Shown here in pieces: positions 301-32,832 of a DNA stretch of 44,545 nucleotides (positions are counted from its first letter, which is position 1; each line of letters starts with the position of its first letter). The notes beneath the pieces were generated by a model. It did not search any database, was not told the origin of the DNA, and saw only the letters and a list, made by a program, of their open reading frames with translations. Where the stretch lies: sequence record OL362272.1, one strand, 5' to 3'. This stretch comes from Escherichia phage 6948. The translations under genes and the position numbers were made by a program.

Positions 301-2198
301 TGGCTAAGGCAAGAGAATCACAAGCGGAGGCTCTTGCCAGATGGGAGATGCTACAGGAGTTACAGCAGACCTTTCCTTACACAGCGGAAGGTTTGCTTCT
401 CTTTGCAGATACAGTTATTCATAACTTAATTGCAGGCAACCCTCATCTGATTCGTATGCAGGCTGATATCTTGAAGTTCCTATTTTACGGACACAAGTAC
501 CGCCTCATCGAAGCGCCTCGTGGTATCGCTAAGACAACACTATCAGCAATCTATACGGTATTCCGTATTATTCATGAACCGCATAAGCGTATCATGGTTG
601 TGTCCCAAAACGCCAAGCGAGCAGAGGAAATCGCAGGTTGGGTAGTTAAAATCTTCCGTGGCTTAGACTTTCTTGAGTTTATGCTGCCGGATATCTACGC
701 TGGGGATCGTGCATCCGTTAAGGCGTTTGAGATTCATTACACCCTACGTGGTAGTGATAAGTCTCCTTCTGTATCTTGTTACTCAATCGAAGCAGGTATG
801 CAGGGTGCTCGTGCTGATATTATTCTAGCGGATGACGTAGAGTCGATGCAGAACGCTCGTACGGCAGCGGGCCGTGCCTTGCTTGAGGAACTGACTAAGG
901 AGTTTGAATCTATCAACCAGTTTGGGGATATCATTTACCTTGGTACACCTCAGAACGTAAACTCTATCTACAACAACCTACCTGCTCGTGGTTACTCTGT
1001 TCGTATCTGGACTGCGCGTTACCCTTCAGTAGAGCAAGAGCAATGTTATGGCGACTTCCTTGCACCTATGATTGTTCAAGATATGAAGGACAACCCAGCA
1101 CTTCGCTCAGGGTACGGGTTGGATGGTAATAGTGGTGCACCTTGTGCCCCTGAAATGTATGATGATGAAGTTCTGATTGAGAAGGAAATCTCTCAGGGTG
1201 CTGCTAAGTTCCAGCTTCAGTTCATGCTTAACACTCGCATGATGGATGCTGACAGATACCCATTACGCCTGAACAATCTAATCTTCACCTCGTTTGGTAC
1301 AGAGGAAGTCCCTGTGATGCCTACGTGGAGTAATGATTCCATAAACATCATTGGTGATGCACCTAAGTATGGTAACAAGCCTACGGATTTCATGTACAGA
1401 CCTGTAGCTCGCCCATATGAATGGGGTGCTGTCTCCCGCAAGATTATGTATATTGACCCTGCGGGTGGCGGTAAGAATGGGGATGAGACGGGTGTGGCCA
1501 TCGTATTCCTGCACGGCACATTCATTTATGTGTATCAGTGCTTTGGTGTACCTGGCGGATACCGAGAATCGTCCCTGAATCGCATTGTGCAGGCCGCAAA
1601 GCAGGCGGGTGTTAAAGAGGTATTCATTGAGAAGAACTTTGGTCATGGCGCGTTTGAGGCGGTAATTAAGCCGTACTTTGAACGAGAGTGGCCTGTAACT
1701 CTGGAAGAAGATTACGCCACCGGACAGAAAGAATTGCGTATCATTGAGACGCTGGAGCCGCTCATGGCAGCCCATAGGCTTATCTTCAATGCAGAGATGG
1801 TGAAGTCAGACTTTGAGTCGGTACAGCACTATCCGCTTGAACTACGCATGTCCTACAGTCTTTTCAATCAAATGTCGAACATAACGATTGAGAAGAACAG
1901 CCTCCGGCACGATGACCGCCTAGACGCCCTGTATGGCGCTATCCGGCAATTAACTTCTCAGATAGACTATGACGAGGTTACACGGATTAATCGCCTCAGA
2001 GCGCAGGAGATGCGAGATTACATCCATGCTATGAACACACCTCATCTACGCAGGGCAATGCTATATGGGGATTACGGTACTGAGCGAAGAGTGACCAACA
2101 CTTCCGTAGCGATGCAGCAGCGAGTTTACGGGCAGAACTACCGAAATAAATCGGCAAGCAGAAATACACTTTCTGCAAGGATTTCAAGGACTTATTAA
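300..2198 (+). CDS. terminase large subunit (DNA maturase B)
   Basis: 632 aa; Walker A-like segment EAPRGIAKTT near the N-terminus, acidic nuclease-type segments (ILADDVES, MYIDPAGGG), size and position typical of T7 gp19-like terminases; RBS GGAGG before ATG 300. Confidence 0.9.
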   Translation: MAKARESQAEALARWEMLQELQQTFPYTAEGLLLFADTVIHNLIAGNPHLIRMQADILKFLFYGHKYRLIEAPRGIAKTTLSAIYTVFRIIHEPHKRIMVVSQNAKRAEEIAGWVVKIFRGLDFLEFMLPDIYAGDRASVKAFEIHYTLRGSDKSPSVSCYSIEAGMQGARADIILADDVESMQNARTAAGRALLEELTKEFESINQFGDIIYLGTPQNVNSIYNNLPARGYSVRIWTARYPSVEQEQCYGDFLAPMIVQDMKDNPALRSGYGLDGNSGAPCAPEMYDDEVLIEKEISQGAAKFQLQFMLNTRMMDADRYPLRLNNLIFTSFGTEEVPVMPTWSNDSINIIGDAPKYGNKPTDFMYRPVARPYEWGAVSRKIMYIDPAGGGKNGDETGVAIVFLHGTFIYVYQCFGVPGGYRESSLNRIVQAAKQAGVKEVFIEKNFGHGAFEAVIKPYFEREWPVTLEEDYATGQKELRIIETLEPLMAAHRLIFNAEMVKSDFESVQHYPLELRMSYSLFNQMSNITIEKNSLRHDDRLDALYGAIRQLTSQIDYDEVTRINRLRAQEMRDYIHAMNTPHLRRAMLYGDYGTERRVTNTSVAMQQRVYGQNYRNKSASRNTLSARISRTY

Positions 2199-2219
2199 TT
2201 ACTGGACACTATAGAAGGA
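2197..2219 (+). promoter_or_regulatory. phage-RNAP promoter after the terminase gene
   Basis: AATTACTGGACACTATAGAAGGA. Confidence 0.7.
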
Positions 2220-2362
2220 AGGCCCAGATAATAAGAGAAATAATAGGTAATATATAGGTTAACCTAGGTTATATAGGTATGCCTTAGTGTGGGTGTACTC
2301 CTGTACACCCTATTCATTACTACCTTACTACCTTACTATATTTACATAATAGGAGAGAGACA

Positions 2363-2641
2363 ATGGCTAATGATTATAGTAGTCAACCATTAACAGGTAA
2401 GTCTAAGAGAAAGCAGGTACAACCTGTAAGTGAAGAACTAATGCTTCCGGTAATCAAAAAAGAGGAAGCTAGTAAGAAAAGCAATGTCATTAATGATGCC
2501 ACCAAATCAGGTAAACAGAAAGGGGCCATGGTGTGCCTTGAAGTGGAAGGTGGTGTATTGAAGATTGCTATCGCGGTTGATGGCAAAGAAGATTCAGAGT
2601 GGAAGTTAGTAACAGTGGAACCAGCTGTTAACCCAGTTTAA
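2363..2641 (+). CDS. hypothetical protein, tandem paralog A
   Basis: 92 aa, RBS AGGAGAGAG upstream; shares the block SGKQKGAMVxLE...IAxA with the next ORF. Confidence 0.5.
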   Translation: MANDYSSQPLTGKSKRKQVQPVSEELMLPVIKKEEASKKSNVINDATKSGKQKGAMVCLEVEGGVLKIAIAVDGKEDSEWKLVTVEPAVNPV

Positions 2642-2659
2642 GATAAGGAGGAAGATTAC

Positions 2660-2950
2660 ATGGCTAAATATGGTACTACAGGTTCTGTTACTGGTCAAGC
2701 TTTTCGAGTAAAAGCAGTACAAACTATTGCAACGGCGATCCCGATGCCTGTTGTTAAAGAAGCAGACCTTAAGAAGAAAGACCACCCTATCAACATCAAA
2801 CATTTATCAGGTAAACAGAAAGGTGCAATGGTTGCTCTTGAGAAAACTGACACAACTCTGCATATTGCTGTTGCACGTGGCAGTGAACCAACAGACCCAT
2901 GGGATGTAACTGGTATGGAAGAGGACGCTGTTACTCCAGCAGGGGAATAA
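2660..2950 (+). CDS. hypothetical protein, tandem paralog B
   Basis: 96 aa, RBS AAGGAGG upstream; shares SGKQKGAMVALE...HIAVA block with 2363-2641. Confidence 0.5.
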   Translation: MAKYGTTGSVTGQAFRVKAVQTIATAIPMPVVKEADLKKKDHPINIKHLSGKQKGAMVALEKTDTTLHIAVARGSEPTDPWDVTGMEEDAVTPAGE

Positions 2951-2952
2951 TA

Positions 2953-3297
2953 ATGCTTAATAAATACTTCAAGCGTAAAGAGTTTGCTTGCCGTTGTGGG
3001 TGCGGTACATCCACTGTTGATGCTGAATTACTACAGGTAGTCACAGATGTGCGTGAGCACTTTGGTTCTCCTGTAGTTATCACTTCGGGTCACCGCTGTG
3101 CTAAGCACAATGCTAATGTAGGAGGAGCTAAGAACTCCATGCATCTTACTGGTAAGGCTGCTGACATTAAGGTGTCTGGTGTTGGCCCAATGGAGGTACG
3201 TGCATACCTCTGCAATAAATACCATGATAAGTACGGTATTGGTGCTTATCCTACTTTTACCCATATCGACGTTAGAGATAACAAAGCAAGATGGTAA
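2953..3297 (+). CDS. endolysin, peptidase M15-type (zinc D-Ala-D-Ala carboxypeptidase / L-Ala-D-Glu peptidase fold)
   Basis: 114 aa from ATG 2953 (MLNKYFKRKEF...); motifs SGHRCxxHN, MHLTGKAADI, FTHIDV match the His/Asp zinc site of M15 peptidases. Confidence 0.8.
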   Translation: MLNKYFKRKEFACRCGCGTSTVDAELLQVVTDVREHFGSPVVITSGHRCAKHNANVGGAKNSMHLTGKAADIKVSGVGPMEVRAYLCNKYHDKYGIGAYPTFTHIDVRDNKARW

Positions 3298-5958: not shown

Positions 5959-7671
5959 ATGCTTCAAAGATTAAGTGCTTACTTGGTGAAGTACAAGAGT
6001 AAACTAACAGGTACTATTGAGCGCCTGCTATCTGATAAACTATCGGATACAATAGATGTTGCGGATTTTGGAGTTACTCCATCTTCCAATGACAACAGGC
6101 AAGCACTTCAAGCTGCGTTCAATGCAGTCAGAGTGTTAGGCGGTGGCACTGTATTAGTCACTAAAGCTGGAAAATACAAACTCAGTGGTACTGTTGAGAT
6201 ATTTGCTAATACACACTTCAAGGTGGCTAAAGGTGTAACATTTGTACGTGACTACGAAACAGGAGATACGCTATTCAGATTATCACAAGGGCAAGCTAGT
6301 AATGTAACAGTCAGTGGAGGTATCTATGAAGGCAATGGTCACACTAAGGGAGATACACCTTTTGTAGTATTTGCATCTACTAGTAATAATGATTTGAAGT
6401 TTGAAGGCATAACAGTTAACAATGTAGTGGACTACCACGCCATAGATTTAGCAGATTGGAACAACGTAGTTATTCGTGATTGTAAATTCCTAGGTTTTAA
6501 GAATACAGGCAGTCGTAACTTCTCAGAGGCTATACAGTTAGACCCAGGTCTTATTACAGTTGGTCACTATGTACAGTCAAGTGGTATGCTGGTGGAGAAT
6601 TGCTATGCTGGTCCAAACACAGAATCAGGGTTTGGAGGTTATGGTGCACTAATTGGAAATCACGCCTCAGCTTACGGTGTACAGGACAACAATATCCGTA
6701 TCTTGAATTGCACTACAGATGGTGCTCTCTTTGCAGGTGTACGTGTATTTAACTGGAAAAACTGGACAGTGCGTGGTTGCACATTTAGGAACTCTAATGC
6801 AAGAGGTGTCCATGTTACACCTGTCTCATCTCAGACTAAACCGCAGGGTACTCGACAAGGTAGTATTGTAGATTGCACTTTTGATGGCGTAAGGACACCA
6901 GTGCTAATTGCTGCACCATCTTGGCCTTTTACCGATATTAGTGACATTTGGCATGACCATATTGAAATTTCTAATAATACTATGATCCTCACAGAGGATG
7001 TATCCTATGGTGTAGATGCAAGGTGGTGTAAGAATTTAATTGTAAAAGGTAATACAGGCTCTGGTGGCTTAGGGTTAATCGGTTTACGCTTTGGGACAAA
7101 ATACCACATCGAAGGTAATACTTGGGAAAACGGAAGAGGTAGTGGGATTTGGTTAGGTGAGTCTGATGCTACTACATTCATTGGTACTGGTTTATCAGGA
7201 GAAGGTATACTTAGTCGTAATATCTTCTCTAAATTAGGGCAATATGGTATTCATGTAAACTGCAAGGCTAGCTGTCTAGTGATTAAAGCCAATAATATGA
7301 AGGAAGTATCTACAGCTGAAGCAGGTAGGCACTTCATTAGTATAGACACAGGGGCTAACAACATCCTAGTAGAAGGTAATATTGGAGTAGACGGAGAAAG
7401 CCCTAACAAGCCAAGCCTTGGTATTCGTGTTACTTCTTCTTGTTCCAATATTAAACTCATTGGCAATGATTGCTATGGCACACAGGCGCCTCAGAATAAC
7501 CAAGGAGTTGGTTCTAGTACGGTGATTGTTTATGGGCTAAATGGCAACCCTACAACTTTAGGCGTAGGTGCACCTGTAGGCTCTTTAGCAACTGATATCA
7601 ATGGTTCTGGTGGTAGTACATTGTACGTTAAAGAATCTGGTACATCTGCTCAAGGTTGGGTTGCAAAGTAG
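5959..7671 (+). CDS. tailspike 2: pectate-lyase-like right-handed beta-helix depolymerase
   Basis: 570 aa, RBS AAAGGAGG; N-terminal DVADFGVTPSSNDNRQALQAAF...GGGTVLV resembles the start of pectate-lyase-3/GH28-like phage depolymerases; repetitive NxxVxG/GN turns. Confidence 0.75.
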   Translation: MLQRLSAYLVKYKSKLTGTIERLLSDKLSDTIDVADFGVTPSSNDNRQALQAAFNAVRVLGGGTVLVTKAGKYKLSGTVEIFANTHFKVAKGVTFVRDYETGDTLFRLSQGQASNVTVSGGIYEGNGHTKGDTPFVVFASTSNNDLKFEGITVNNVVDYHAIDLADWNNVVIRDCKFLGFKNTGSRNFSEAIQLDPGLITVGHYVQSSGMLVENCYAGPNTESGFGGYGALIGNHASAYGVQDNNIRILNCTTDGALFAGVRVFNWKNWTVRGCTFRNSNARGVHVTPVSSQTKPQGTRQGSIVDCTFDGVRTPVLIAAPSWPFTDISDIWHDHIEISNNTMILTEDVSYGVDARWCKNLIVKGNTGSGGLGLIGLRFGTKYHIEGNTWENGRGSGIWLGESDATTFIGTGLSGEGILSRNIFSKLGQYGIHVNCKASCLVIKANNMKEVSTAEAGRHFISIDTGANNILVEGNIGVDGESPNKPSLGIRVTSSCSNIKLIGNDCYGTQAPQNNQGVGSSTVIVYGLNGNPTTLGVGAPVGSLATDINGSGGSTLYVKESGTSAQGWVAK

Positions 7672-31623: not shown

Positions 31624-32832
31624 ATGTCTACACCGAATACTCTGACTAACGTTGCTGTATCTGCATCCGGTGAGGTTGACAGCCTTCTCATTGAGAAGTT
31701 TAATGGTAAGGTCAATGAGCAGTACCTGAAAGGTGAGAACATTCTGTCCTACTTTGATGTACAAACTGTTACTGGCACTAACACAGTGAGCAACAAATAT
31801 TTGGGCGAAACTGAGTTGCAGGTGCTAGCACCGGGTCAGTCTCCTAATGCCACCCCTACTCAGGCGGATAAAAACCAGTTGGTAATTGATACCACTGTCA
31901 TTGCTCGTAACACTGTGGCTCACATCCACGATGTACAAGGTGACATCGATAGCCTGAAACCAAAATTGGCTATGAACCAAGCCAAGCAACTGAAACGTCT
32001 GGAAGACCAGATGGCAATTCAGCAGATGCTGTTAGGCGGTATTGCTAACACCAAGGCCAAACGTAACAAGCCGCGTGTTAAAGGGCATGGCTTCTCTATC
32101 AACGTTAACGTAACTGAGAGTGAAGCACTGGCTAACCCTCAGTATGTTATGGCTGCGGTAGAGTATGCTCTGGAGCAACAGCTTGAGCAGGAAGTGGATA
32201 TCTCTGATGTAGCTATCATGATGCCGTGGAAGTTCTTCAATGCTCTGCGTGATGCAGACCGAATTGTAGATAAGACTTACACTATCAGCCAGTCTGGTGC
32301 AACCATTAATGGCTTCGTTCTCTCTTCTTATAACTGCCCTGTGATCCCGTCTAACCGATTCCCTACCTTCGCTCAGAATCAGGCTCACCACCTGTTGTCT
32401 AATGAAGATAACGGCTATCGTTATGACCCTATCGCAGAGATGAATGGTGCAGTTGCTGTTCTGTTCACTGCCGACGCACTGCTGGTGGGTCGTACCATTG
32501 AAGTGACTGGTGACATCTTCTATGAGAAGAAAGAGAAGACTTATTACATTGACACCTTCATGGCTGAGGGTGCAATCCCTGACCGTTGGGAAGCAGTGTC
32601 TGTAGTTACCACTAAACGTAATGCAACTACTGGTGCTGCTGAAGGTGCTGGTGATGATCACGCAACCGTACTGGCTCGTGCACAGCGTAAGGCTGTATAT
32701 GTCAAAACCGAAGGTGCTGCGGCTGCATTCTCTGCTGCCCCAGCAGGTATCCAAGCGGAAGACCTTGTAGCGGCGGTACGTGCTGTAATGGCAAATGACA
32801 TCAAGCCGACTGCAATGAAACCTGCTGAGTAA
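31624..32832 (+). CDS. major capsid protein
   Basis: 402 aa; strong promoter (31551-31573) and RBS AAGGAG; highly biased codon usage; followed by a terminator. Confidence 0.85.
   Translation: MSTPNTLTNVAVSASGEVDSLLIEKFNGKVNEQYLKGENILSYFDVQTVTGTNTVSNKYLGETELQVLAPGQSPNATPTQADKNQLVIDTTVIARNTVAHIHDVQGDIDSLKPKLAMNQAKQLKRLEDQMAIQQMLLGGIANTKAKRNKPRVKGHGFSINVNVTESEALANPQYVMAAVEYALEQQLEQEVDISDVAIMMPWKFFNALRDADRIVDKTYTISQSGATINGFVLSSYNCPVIPSNRFPTFAQNQAHHLLSNEDNGYRYDPIAEMNGAVAVLFTADALLVGRTIEVTGDIFYEKKEKTYYIDTFMAEGAIPDRWEAVSVVTTKRNATTGAAEGAGDDHATVLARAQRKAVYVKTEGAAAAFSAAPAGIQAEDLVAAVRAVMANDIKPTAMKPAE

What the first reader, a model, noticed from the sequence alone, without database searches (positions are those of the whole stretch)
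2363..2950. Tandem pair of paralogous small genes between terminase and endolysin
Two adjacent ORFs (92 and 96 aa), each with a strong RBS and preceded by a phage promoter, share a conserved core (SGKQKGAMVxLE ... IAxA) but diverge elsewhere. This looks like a local duplication followed by divergence, as seen in accessory or host-interaction loci. No function is assignable from sequence.
Basis: seen in the sequence. Interest (0 to 1): 0.55.

Follow-up and report, generated by a model that had tools for sequence, protein, structure and literature searches.

The report
Paired virion-anchor genes after the terminase
The two small neighbouring genes are real, anciently duplicated copies (K1-5 genes 41 and 42) of an uncharacterised phage domain that in related phages carries knobs, fibres and Ig-like domains, so they are most likely small proteins on the outside of the virus particle, not the "acetyl-CoA acetyltransferase" that databases call them.

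Summary
ORFs 2363-2641 (92 aa) and 2660-2950 (96 aa) are full-length paralogs (38% identity, E 2e-15, shuffle z = 21). They lie between the large terminase and an M15 endolysin, behind one consensus phage promoter.

The window is a K1-5-like Vectrevirus, and these are K1-5 genes 41 and 42. The database label "acetyl-CoA acetyltransferase" has no support.

The domain has no Pfam family and no solved structure. It is widespread in T7-type phages and almost always sits in the slot just after the terminase. It occurs as 1-4 separate genes, or as one gene with three tandem copies that AlphaFold2 packs into a compact body (pTM 0.81). In relatives the same domain carries an Ig-like domain, an Sf6-type needle knob or a phi29 head-fibre segment.

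The duplication is older than the SP6-like genera, and both copies are under purifying selection.

My best reading is small oligomeric, probably trimeric, virion-surface proteins, most likely capsid decoration "bases" that lack a distal domain. Phage PhiM1 keeps its two cryo-EM-proven, unrelated decoration genes in the same slot. This function is inferred; I found no virion proteomics or structure for it. It is moderately interesting: a probable new family of a known kind.

The parts
2198..2217 (+). SP6/K1-5-type phage RNA polymerase promoter (attactgGACACTATAGAAG) that drives the gene pair.
   Evidence: The core is an exact match and one of 8 exact copies in the window. With up to 2 mismatches there are 15 matches, against 1.4 expected by chance. 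The extended sequence matches the promoters in front of the capsid gene (31559) and the tailspike gene (3880).
2291..2310 (+). An 8-bp G+C-rich hairpin (GGGTGTAC-TCCT-GTACACCC) in the 5' leader. Its role is unknown; it could be a processing or stability element, or a weak terminator.
   Evidence: The terminator-like scan found it. The homologous site in MK373773 is annotated as a putative terminator. No U-run follows it, and the leader as a whole is not unusually stable (z = 0.48).
2351..2355 (+). Shine-Dalgarno sequence AGGAG for gene 41.
   Evidence: Read directly from the sequence.
2363..2641 (+). Gene 1 of the pair, the K1-5 gp41 orthologue (92 aa, 9.9 kDa, no transmembrane segment): one copy of the uncharacterised domain.
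   Evidence: ORF. phrog_2725 hit, E = 2.7e-37. 98 homologues, nearly all on contigs of about 44 kb. dN/dS of 0.35-0.56 for comparisons with dS >= 0.1. Physical properties.
2645..2651 (+). Shine-Dalgarno sequence AAGGAGG for gene 42.
   Evidence: Read directly from the sequence.
2660..2950 (+). Gene 2 of the pair, the K1-5 gp42 orthologue (96 aa, 10.2 kDa): the second, diverged copy of the same domain.
   Evidence: ORF. phrog_2725 hit, E = 3.5e-46. 106 homologues. dN/dS of 0.24-0.56 for comparisons with dS >= 0.1. AF2 model is a small alpha/beta fold with pLDDT 71.5 and a low-confidence but conserved N-terminal arm.

Best explanation
**Proposal.** gp41 and gp42 are two anciently diverged copies of a small (about 90 aa) virion-anchoring domain. 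They are made late and in quantity from their own consensus phage promoter.

**Proposed mechanism.**
- The conserved core (N45, SGKQKGAMV, IAxA, W81) folds into a small beta-rich module.
- Three such modules assemble into a compact body. They would be three gp41/gp42 chains here, as homotrimers or a mixed trimer, and one chain with three repeats in other phages.
- The conserved but intrinsically flexible N-terminal arm (TG-x3-R-x-K ... P30) and the C-terminal (V/I)TP tail hold this body on the outside of the particle. The capsid shell is the most likely site, as for decoration proteins.
- In relatives the same base carries a distal knob, fibre or Ig-like domain. The K1-5 versions are bare bases. 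Their likely role is to stabilise or coat the capsid, possibly at two different classes of site.

**Shown:** paralogy, late-gene context, conservation, family architectures, the compact AF2 model and the conserved gene slot.

**Inferred:** oligomeric state, presence in the virion, attachment site and role.
For: 1. **Fusion partners.** In relatives the domain sits N-terminal to, or surrounds, modules that to my knowledge are known almost only from exposed virion proteins:
   - Ig_3/I-set: P0281, and the 178-aa protein of Klebsiella phage PA45-9. PHROGs matches include Hoc-like head decoration (5e-24) and major tail protein.
   - Sf6-type tail needle knob: P0272 at 1.7e-30, and P0337 (Ralstonia phage Reminis) at 5e-43.
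   - phi29-type head fibre: P0314 at 5e-6, plus PHROGs head-fibre families.
   - BFVD also lists a 558-aa SGNH-esterase protein and a protein annotated as tail fibre among structural relatives.
2. **The knob is an insertion.** Knob-bearing members still end in the family's ...ITPV tail. Both termini therefore belong to the base.
3. **A three-domain unit.**
   - At least 23 proteins of about 260-300 aa consist of three detectable tandem copies.
   - AF2 gives P0206 a pLDDT of 84 and a pTM of 0.81, which means a defined inter-domain packing.
   - These fused genes occupy the same post-terminase slot in T7-like metagenomic phages.
4. **A conserved but disordered arm.** T11, G12, R16 and K18 are invariant or nearly so, yet residues 1-15 have pLDDT below 50. 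This is typical of an arm that orders on a partner, as I recall for the N-terminus of lambda gpD (from memory).
5. **Expression signals.** The pair has an exact consensus late promoter of the same form as those in front of the capsid and tailspike genes, plus strong ribosome-binding sites.
6. **Positional analogy.** In Pectobacterium phage PhiM1, the two genes directly after the large terminase and before the lysis genes encode the cryo-EM-proven capsid decoration proteins alpha-claw and alpha-paw (PDB 8VB0; PMC11440229). They too are a short/long paralogous pair.
7. **Variable copy number and distal domains** within one genus. This is as expected for an accessory surface module.
Against: - The window's own proteins lack any distal domain, so the fusion argument is by homology only.
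- PhiM1's decoration proteins are not homologous to this family (hhalign probability below 1%), so the synteny argument is analogy only.
- The single-domain AF2 model is only moderate (pLDDT 71.5).
- The three-fold arrangement is inferred from pTM and from the architecture. I did not inspect coordinates.
- Capsid versus tail attachment is unresolved. In Ralstonia phage Reminis the knob-bearing paralog lies next to the tailspike gene.
- As I recall, low-resolution K1E/K1-5 reconstructions did not report capsid decorations. This is from memory and I could not check it.
Confidence: 0.55

Rival explanations
1. The proteins are on the virion but on the tail or neck rather than the capsid. The domain would be an N-terminal anchor for accessory side fibres or knobs on the tail, and gp41/gp42 would be stub versions that fill those sites.
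Confidence: 0.15
2. The proteins are non-structural late proteins that act inside the cell. They could be an assembly or packaging helper linked to the terminase, a lysis-timing factor linked to the adjacent lysis cassette, or a small oligomeric anti-defence "sponge".
For: The genes lie between the terminase and the lysis genes. No virion evidence exists. One metagenomic relative, P0344, joins the domain to an Acb2/Tad1 hairpin domain (7.8e-11). The proteins are small and probably oligomeric, with conserved basic residues.
Against: Ig-like, knob and head-fibre partners make little sense for an intracellular factor. There is no transmembrane segment or signal peptide. There is no PADLOC hit. 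The Acb2/Tad1 fusion is a single case on a 2.6-kb contig and lacks the family's C-terminal tail. The gene is expressed from a late promoter rather than an early one.
Confidence: 0.2
3. They are acetyl-CoA acetyltransferases (thiolases), as annotated in RefSeq, PHROGs and many GenBank records.
For: Only the label itself supports this: phrog_2725, and the product names in the K1-5, SP6, PP1 and other records.
Against: The proteins are 92-96 aa, whereas thiolases are about 390 aa (from memory). No Pfam family of any kind hits at E <= 10. No NCBIfam hit comes near its cutoff. No PDB match exists by sequence or fold. The label looks like an early weak-similarity call that was then propagated.
Confidence: 0.01

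Closest known systems
Escherichia phage K1-5 genes 41 and 42 (YP_654142, YP_654143), with K1E gp41/gp42 and SP6 gp42/gp43/gp44 (42.3); PHROGs family phrog_2725
   Same: These are orthologues. The region is 95.5% identical in nucleotides to K1-5 and has the same order: terminase, 41, 42, endolysin. Both window proteins hit phrog_2725 at 1e-37 and 1e-46.
   Different: Nothing material differs. These entries have no experimentally known function and carry an unsupported enzyme name.
Pectobacterium phage PhiM1 capsid decoration proteins alpha-claw (gp44, 62 aa) and alpha-paw (gp43, 179 aa), PDB 8VB0
   Same: They occupy the same genomic slot, directly after the large terminase and before the lysis genes, in an Autographiviridae genome. 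They are likewise a pair of adjacent paralogs that share a binding motif, one minimal and one with a distal extension (PMC11440229).
   Different: There is no sequence or profile similarity. The PhiM1 proteins are helix-turn-helix dimers at two-fold axes. The present domain is predicted to be beta-rich and apparently works in threes.
Decoration or head-fibre proteins built from a capsid-binding base plus a distal module: phi29 gp8.5, T5 pb10, T4 Hoc, phage L Dec, lambda gpD
   Same: The architectural logic is shared: a small anchor with an optional Ig-like, fibre or knob domain, as in pb10, Hoc and gp8.5. A flexible arm that orders on binding is recalled for gpD, and trimeric units for gpD, Dec and gp8.5 (from memory; review PMC7602432 was listed but not read). 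One relative, P0314, carries a phi29 head-fibre segment.
Sf6-type tail needle knob (Pfam PF16532)
   Same: This module is found inserted into relatives of the domain: P0272, and P0337 from Ralstonia phage Reminis.
   Different: The window's proteins have no knob. In Sf6 the knob sits on a gp26-type needle, which is absent here (from memory).

Membership tests
phrog_2725 / K1-5 gp41-gp42 family (uncharacterised) | A significant full-length profile match. | tested here: met
   E = 2.7e-37 for gp41 and 3.5e-46 for gp42. The exhaustive HMM search found 232 relatives at E <= 1e-3.
phrog_2725 / K1-5 gp41-gp42 family (uncharacterised) | Conserved positions T11, G12, R16, P30, SGKQ, A56, A72, W81 and the C-terminal TP. 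| tested here: met
   These positions are invariant or nearly so in the 25-sequence alignment A1, and both window proteins have them.
Acetyl-CoA acetyltransferase (thiolase) | The thiolase N- and C-terminal domains (about 390 aa) with catalytic Cys and His residues. | tested here: not met
   The proteins are 92-96 aa. No Pfam hit of any kind at E <= 10, no NCBIfam hit near its cutoff, and no PDB match.
Capsid decoration proteins (functional class) | Bound to the outside of the mature capsid in defined stoichiometry. | not testable with these tools
   This needs virion proteomics or cryo-EM. I found neither in the searchable literature.
Capsid decoration proteins (functional class) | A late-expressed, accessory, copy-number-variable gene in the structural or late module. 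| tested here: met
   Consensus late promoter. 1-4 copies among relatives. A third paralog is present in about 30 related genomes and absent from the window.
PhiM1/HRP29 alpha-claw decoration family | A helix-turn-helix alpha-claw motif, detectable as homology to PDB 8VB0 chains H and J. | tested here: not met
   hhalign probability below 1%. The AF2 models are mainly beta. Only the genomic position is shared.
phi29 head fibre (PF11133) | A match to the gp8.5 profile. | tested here: not met
   The window proteins give no hit. Only the relative P0314 matches, and only over the C-terminal positions 223-273 of the profile.
Ig-like (Hoc/pb10-type) decoration | Presence of an Ig-like domain. | tested here: not met
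   The domain is absent from gp41 and gp42. It is present in the paralog of Klebsiella phage PA45-9 and in P0281.

The most novel reading that the evidence does not exclude
The gp41/gp42 domain would define a previously unrecognised, widespread family of three-fold virion (probably capsid) anchors in T7-type phages. It could be built from three separate chains, including mixed gp41/gp42 trimers, or from one chain with three repeats, and would serve as a plug-in base for swappable knobs, fibres and Ig-like adhesins. If so, K1-5 and SP6 capsids are decorated after all. These phages would then carry a second, head-borne layer of host or environment binding, and would offer a natural display scaffold.
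Probability: 0.4. Interest if true: 0.6.

Novelty: new variant of a known kind. Interest (0 to 1): 0.42.

Why it matters
K1-5, K1E and SP6 are model and therapeutic capsule-targeting phages, yet two conserved, strongly expressed late genes in them still carry a wrong enzyme name. If the proteins are virion-surface anchors, several things follow.

- A new structural family is added to the short list of known decoration or fibre bases.
- A variable locus next to the lysis genes is explained across the SP6-like Molineuxvirinae and other T7-type phages sampled.
- Some relatives would appear to carry extra adhesin or knob modules that could affect host range or persistence.
- The base could serve as a small, high-copy handle for phage display or engineering.

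At the least, the "acetyl-CoA acetyltransferase" annotation in RefSeq and PHROGs should be dropped.

Tried and rejected
- **Thiolase annotation.** Rejected: no Pfam, NCBIfam or PDB support, and the size is wrong.
- **GroES or IF-5A likeness.** NCBIfam gave E of 0.02-0.07, far below the cutoffs. I treated this as noise.
- **Stop-codon read-through producing a gp41-gp42 fusion.** The genes are in the same frame in the window, K1-5, K1E and UAB_Phi78, with spacers of 18, 18, 12 and 15 nt. In a wider sample only 20 of 42 adjacent pairs are in frame, with spacers of 9-23 nt or overlaps. Rejected.
- **Homology to the PhiM1 decoration proteins.** None found.
- **C-terminal domains of the ~235-aa third paralogs.** No Pfam or PDB match.
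- **Defence or anti-defence models.** No PADLOC hit.
- **Literature.** Nine full-text searches and several papers gave no functional, proteomic or structural data on these genes. One search was badly framed and wasted. The SP6 genome paper was not held.
- **Locus retrieval.** The search for related loci failed with the three-domain alignment or protein. tblastn with P0301 found nothing.
- **Leader RNA.** It is not unusually structured.

Full report
**What the window is.** The 771-nt region around the finding is 95-97% identical to Vectrevirus genomes, including Escherichia phage K1-5 (Autographiviridae, Molineuxvirinae). It is present in 67 phage records, and 63 of them cover at least 80% of it. 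The window is a circularly permuted K1-5-like genome. In K1-5 the two ORFs are genes 41 and 42 (YP_654142/3), lying between the large terminase and the endolysin.

**Checking the observation.**
- ORFs 2363-2641 (92 aa) and 2660-2950 (96 aa) exist as described.
- They align end to end: 38% identity, E = 2e-15. The local score is 131, against 26.8 +/- 4.9 for 2000 shuffles (z = 21).
- Upstream is the T7-type large terminase (297-2198). Downstream is a Peptidase_M15_3 endolysin (2953-3297).
- Both genes have good Shine-Dalgarno sequences.
- One consensus phage promoter (core 2205-2217) precedes the pair. The 18-nt spacer between the genes holds no promoter.
- That promoter has the same extended form as the ones directly upstream of the major capsid gene (31559, before ORF 31624-32832) and of the first tailspike gene (3880).
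- An 8-bp hairpin at 2291-2310 lies in the leader. It is annotated as a putative terminator in MK373773, but no U-run follows it and the leader is not unusually stable.

**Are they real genes?**
- Each has about 100 cluster-level homologues, nearly all on contigs of about 44 kb.
- Across K1-5, K1E, UAB_Phi78, KAW1A4500 and Ro_P3a, comparisons with dS >= 0.1 give dN/dS of 0.35-0.56 for gene 41 and 0.24-0.56 for gene 42. Very close pairs are uninformative. Selection is purifying but fairly relaxed.
- Changes concentrate in residues about 31-44, 59-67 and the C-terminal third. The N-terminal arm and the SGKQKGAMV / IAxA / W81 core are fixed.
- The proteins are hydrophilic, about 10 kDa, and have no transmembrane segment.

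**The database label is wrong.** Both proteins fall in phrog_2725, named "acetyl-CoA acetyltransferase". RefSeq and many GenBank records repeat that name, and it is already present in the SP6 record AY288927. No Pfam model of any kind hits at E <= 10. NCBIfam gives only sub-threshold noise. No PDB sequence matches. A 92-96-aa protein cannot be a thiolase.

**The wider family.** A profile built from 25 gp41/gp42 homologues was searched against 1.84 billion representative proteins and found 232 relatives at E <= 1e-3. Among the best 150 hits there are:
- 83 single-domain proteins of about 90 aa.
- 23 proteins of about 260-300 aa with three detectable tandem copies that fill the whole chain, plus others of similar length in which only two copies were detected.
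- About 20 proteins with one N-terminal copy plus extra sequence.

The extra sequence is informative:
- Ig_3/I-set domains: P0281 and a 178-aa protein of Klebsiella phage PA45-9. PHROGs matches include Hoc-like head decoration and major-tail Ig families.
- The Sf6-type tail needle knob: P0272 at 1.7e-30 and P0337 at 5e-43.
- A phi29 head-fibre segment: P0314.
- Unclassified domains of about 150 aa, in at least two classes.

BFVD adds relatives in Proteus, Aeromonas, Vibrio, Erwinia, Pseudomonas and Marinomonas phages. These include a 558-aa SGNH-esterase protein and one protein annotated as tail fibre. Knob-bearing members still end with the family's ...ITPV tail, so the knob is inserted inside the domain rather than appended.

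**Position in genomes.** Wherever enough context was available, the family sits directly after the large terminase and usually before the lysis genes:

| Phage or contig | Arrangement after the large terminase |
|---|---|
| K1-5-like phages | 2 genes |
| SP6 | 3 genes (gp42, gp43, and a shortened gp44) |
| Pectobacterium PP1 | 3 genes |
| Klebsiella PA45-9 | 4 genes (88, 88, 178 with Ig, 238 aa) |
| Metagenomic T7-like contigs L007, L009 | one fused three-domain gene |
| L042 | the head-fibre-like member, then a lysozyme |
| L044 | three paralogs (one of 438 aa), a 214-aa gene, then an M15 endolysin |
| Ralstonia phage Reminis | a 92-aa member, then lysis genes and a tailspike, then the knob-bearing member |

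About 30 Molineuxvirinae genomes carry a third paralog of 225-245 aa between gene 42 and the endolysin. They include Vectrevirus relatives 90% identical to the window. The window lacks this gene. The window contains only the two copies.

**Age of the duplication.** A neighbour-joining tree of 42 domains groups the first genes together (window gp41, SP6 gp42, PP1 gp43, PA45-9 gene 1). It also groups the gp42-type genes together (window gp42, SP6 gp43, PP1 gp45, PA45-9 genes 2 and 4). In the fused proteins, repeats 1, 2 and 3 each group across proteins. Support is modest for the Molineuxvirinae clades (33-60%) and higher for several repeat clades (74-100%). The pattern argues that the duplication predates the SP6-like genera. 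It is not a recent local event.

**Structure.**
- AF2 on gp42 with the 25-sequence alignment gives a small alpha/beta module (pLDDT 71.5). Residues 1-15 have pLDDT below 50 even though they contain invariant positions.
- AF2 on the three-domain protein P0206 gives pLDDT 84.2 and pTM 0.81. The three modules are therefore placed confidently against one another, and the linkers have lower confidence.
- The fold therefore has no solved relative. No deposited phage structure contains it.

**A positional analogue with experimental proof.** In Pectobacterium phage PhiM1 (Autographiviridae, Corkvirinae), the two genes directly after the large terminase and before the lysis genes are PhiM1_47 (62 aa) and PhiM1_48 (179 aa). 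They are identical to PDB 8VB0 chains H ("alpha-claw decoration protein gp44") and J ("alpha-paw decoration protein gp43"). The paper describes them as paralogs that share a capsid-binding motif, one minimal and one with a fibre-like extension (PMC11440229). They are not homologous to the present family. The parallel is in position and logic only.

**Interpretation.**
- The domain is best explained as a virion-surface anchor that works in threes, with optional distal modules. The evidence is the combination of late, promoter-driven expression, a conserved flexible arm, a unit of three modules, swappable distal domains (Ig, knob, head fibre), copy-number variation, and a slot that holds decoration genes in another T7-type phage.
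- gp41 and gp42 are then bare bases, most likely capsid decoration proteins (confidence about 0.55).
- A tail or neck location is the main structural alternative (0.15).
- An intracellular late function remains possible because there is no direct virion evidence (0.2). One metagenomic fusion to an Acb2/Tad1 hairpin domain hints at it. The other fusion partners argue against it, as do the late promoter and the absence of PADLOC hits.

**Limits.**
- No proteomic, genetic or structural data on these proteins were found in the searchable literature.
- The oligomeric state, the site of attachment and the division of labour between the two paralogs are all inferences.
- I could not inspect model coordinates or run multimer predictions.

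**Verdict.** The genes themselves are already in databases (K1-5 gp41/gp42). What is new is the reading of the family as a probable new kind of virion anchor or decoration domain, and the rejection of the enzyme label. Interest is moderate.

Noticed in passing
window 2363-2950; also K1-5 NC_008152 37756-38343, SP6 AY288927 37921-38534, phrog_2725: The product name "acetyl-CoA acetyltransferase" is spread across RefSeq, GenBank and PHROGs for these ~95-aa proteins. Nothing in the sequence supports it. It appears already in the SP6 record.
   Followed up: yes
window 2218-2362: The 150-nt leader between the promoter and gene 41 contains AT-rich ATAGGT-type repeats (about 2233-2280) and an 8-bp G+C hairpin (2291-2310). 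The hairpin is annotated as a putative terminator in MK373773. No U-run follows it, and the overall fold is not unusual (z = 0.48). It might be a processing or stability element.
   Followed up: partly
window 5959-7671: The second tailspike is a 570-aa right-handed beta-helix protein (Pfam Beta_helix). It is not the 811-aa endosialidase that K1-5 has at this position. This phage probably targets a different capsule from K1.
   Followed up: partly
L013 2219-2932 (Raoultella phage vB_Ro_P3a); L016 794-1471 (vB_EcoP_KAW1A4500): Close Vectrevirus relatives carry a third paralog (225-237 aa: the domain plus an unclassified C-terminal domain, phrog_32357) between gene 42 and the endolysin. About 30 phage records have one. 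The window and K1-5 do not.
   Followed up: partly
L007 10879-11144 and L008 7800-8065: In a metagenomic T7-like phage, the fused three-domain gene is followed by what looks like a fourth copy split across two reading frames. This could be a frameshifted pseudogene, an assembly error or a programmed shift. It was seen in two samples.
   Followed up: no
L039 114-482 (protein P0344): One metagenomic protein joins the domain to an Acb2/Tad1 hairpin domain (Pfam 7.8e-11), a module known from anti-CBASS and anti-Thoeris sponges. It is on a single 2.6-kb contig and lacks the family's C-terminal ITP tail, so it may be a recombinant or an artefact.
   Followed up: partly
window 2639-2659: Genes 41 and 42 are in the same reading frame, separated by TAA plus six codons, so tblastn aligns straight through the stop. 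The frame is kept in K1-5, K1E and UAB_Phi78 despite spacers of 18, 12 and 15 nt, but in only 20 of 42 adjacent pairs in a wider sample. There is no good evidence for read-through.
   Followed up: yes
window 2899-3297: The mechanical ORF list gives a 132-aa endolysin ORF that overlaps gene 42. The K1-5 annotation and the Pfam match fit a start at 2953, which gives 114 aa, two bases after the gene 42 stop.
   Followed up: partly
L007 12141-12410: The same metagenomic phage encodes a Tad2-like (anti-Thoeris) protein about 1.3 kb downstream of the three-domain gene.
   Followed up: no
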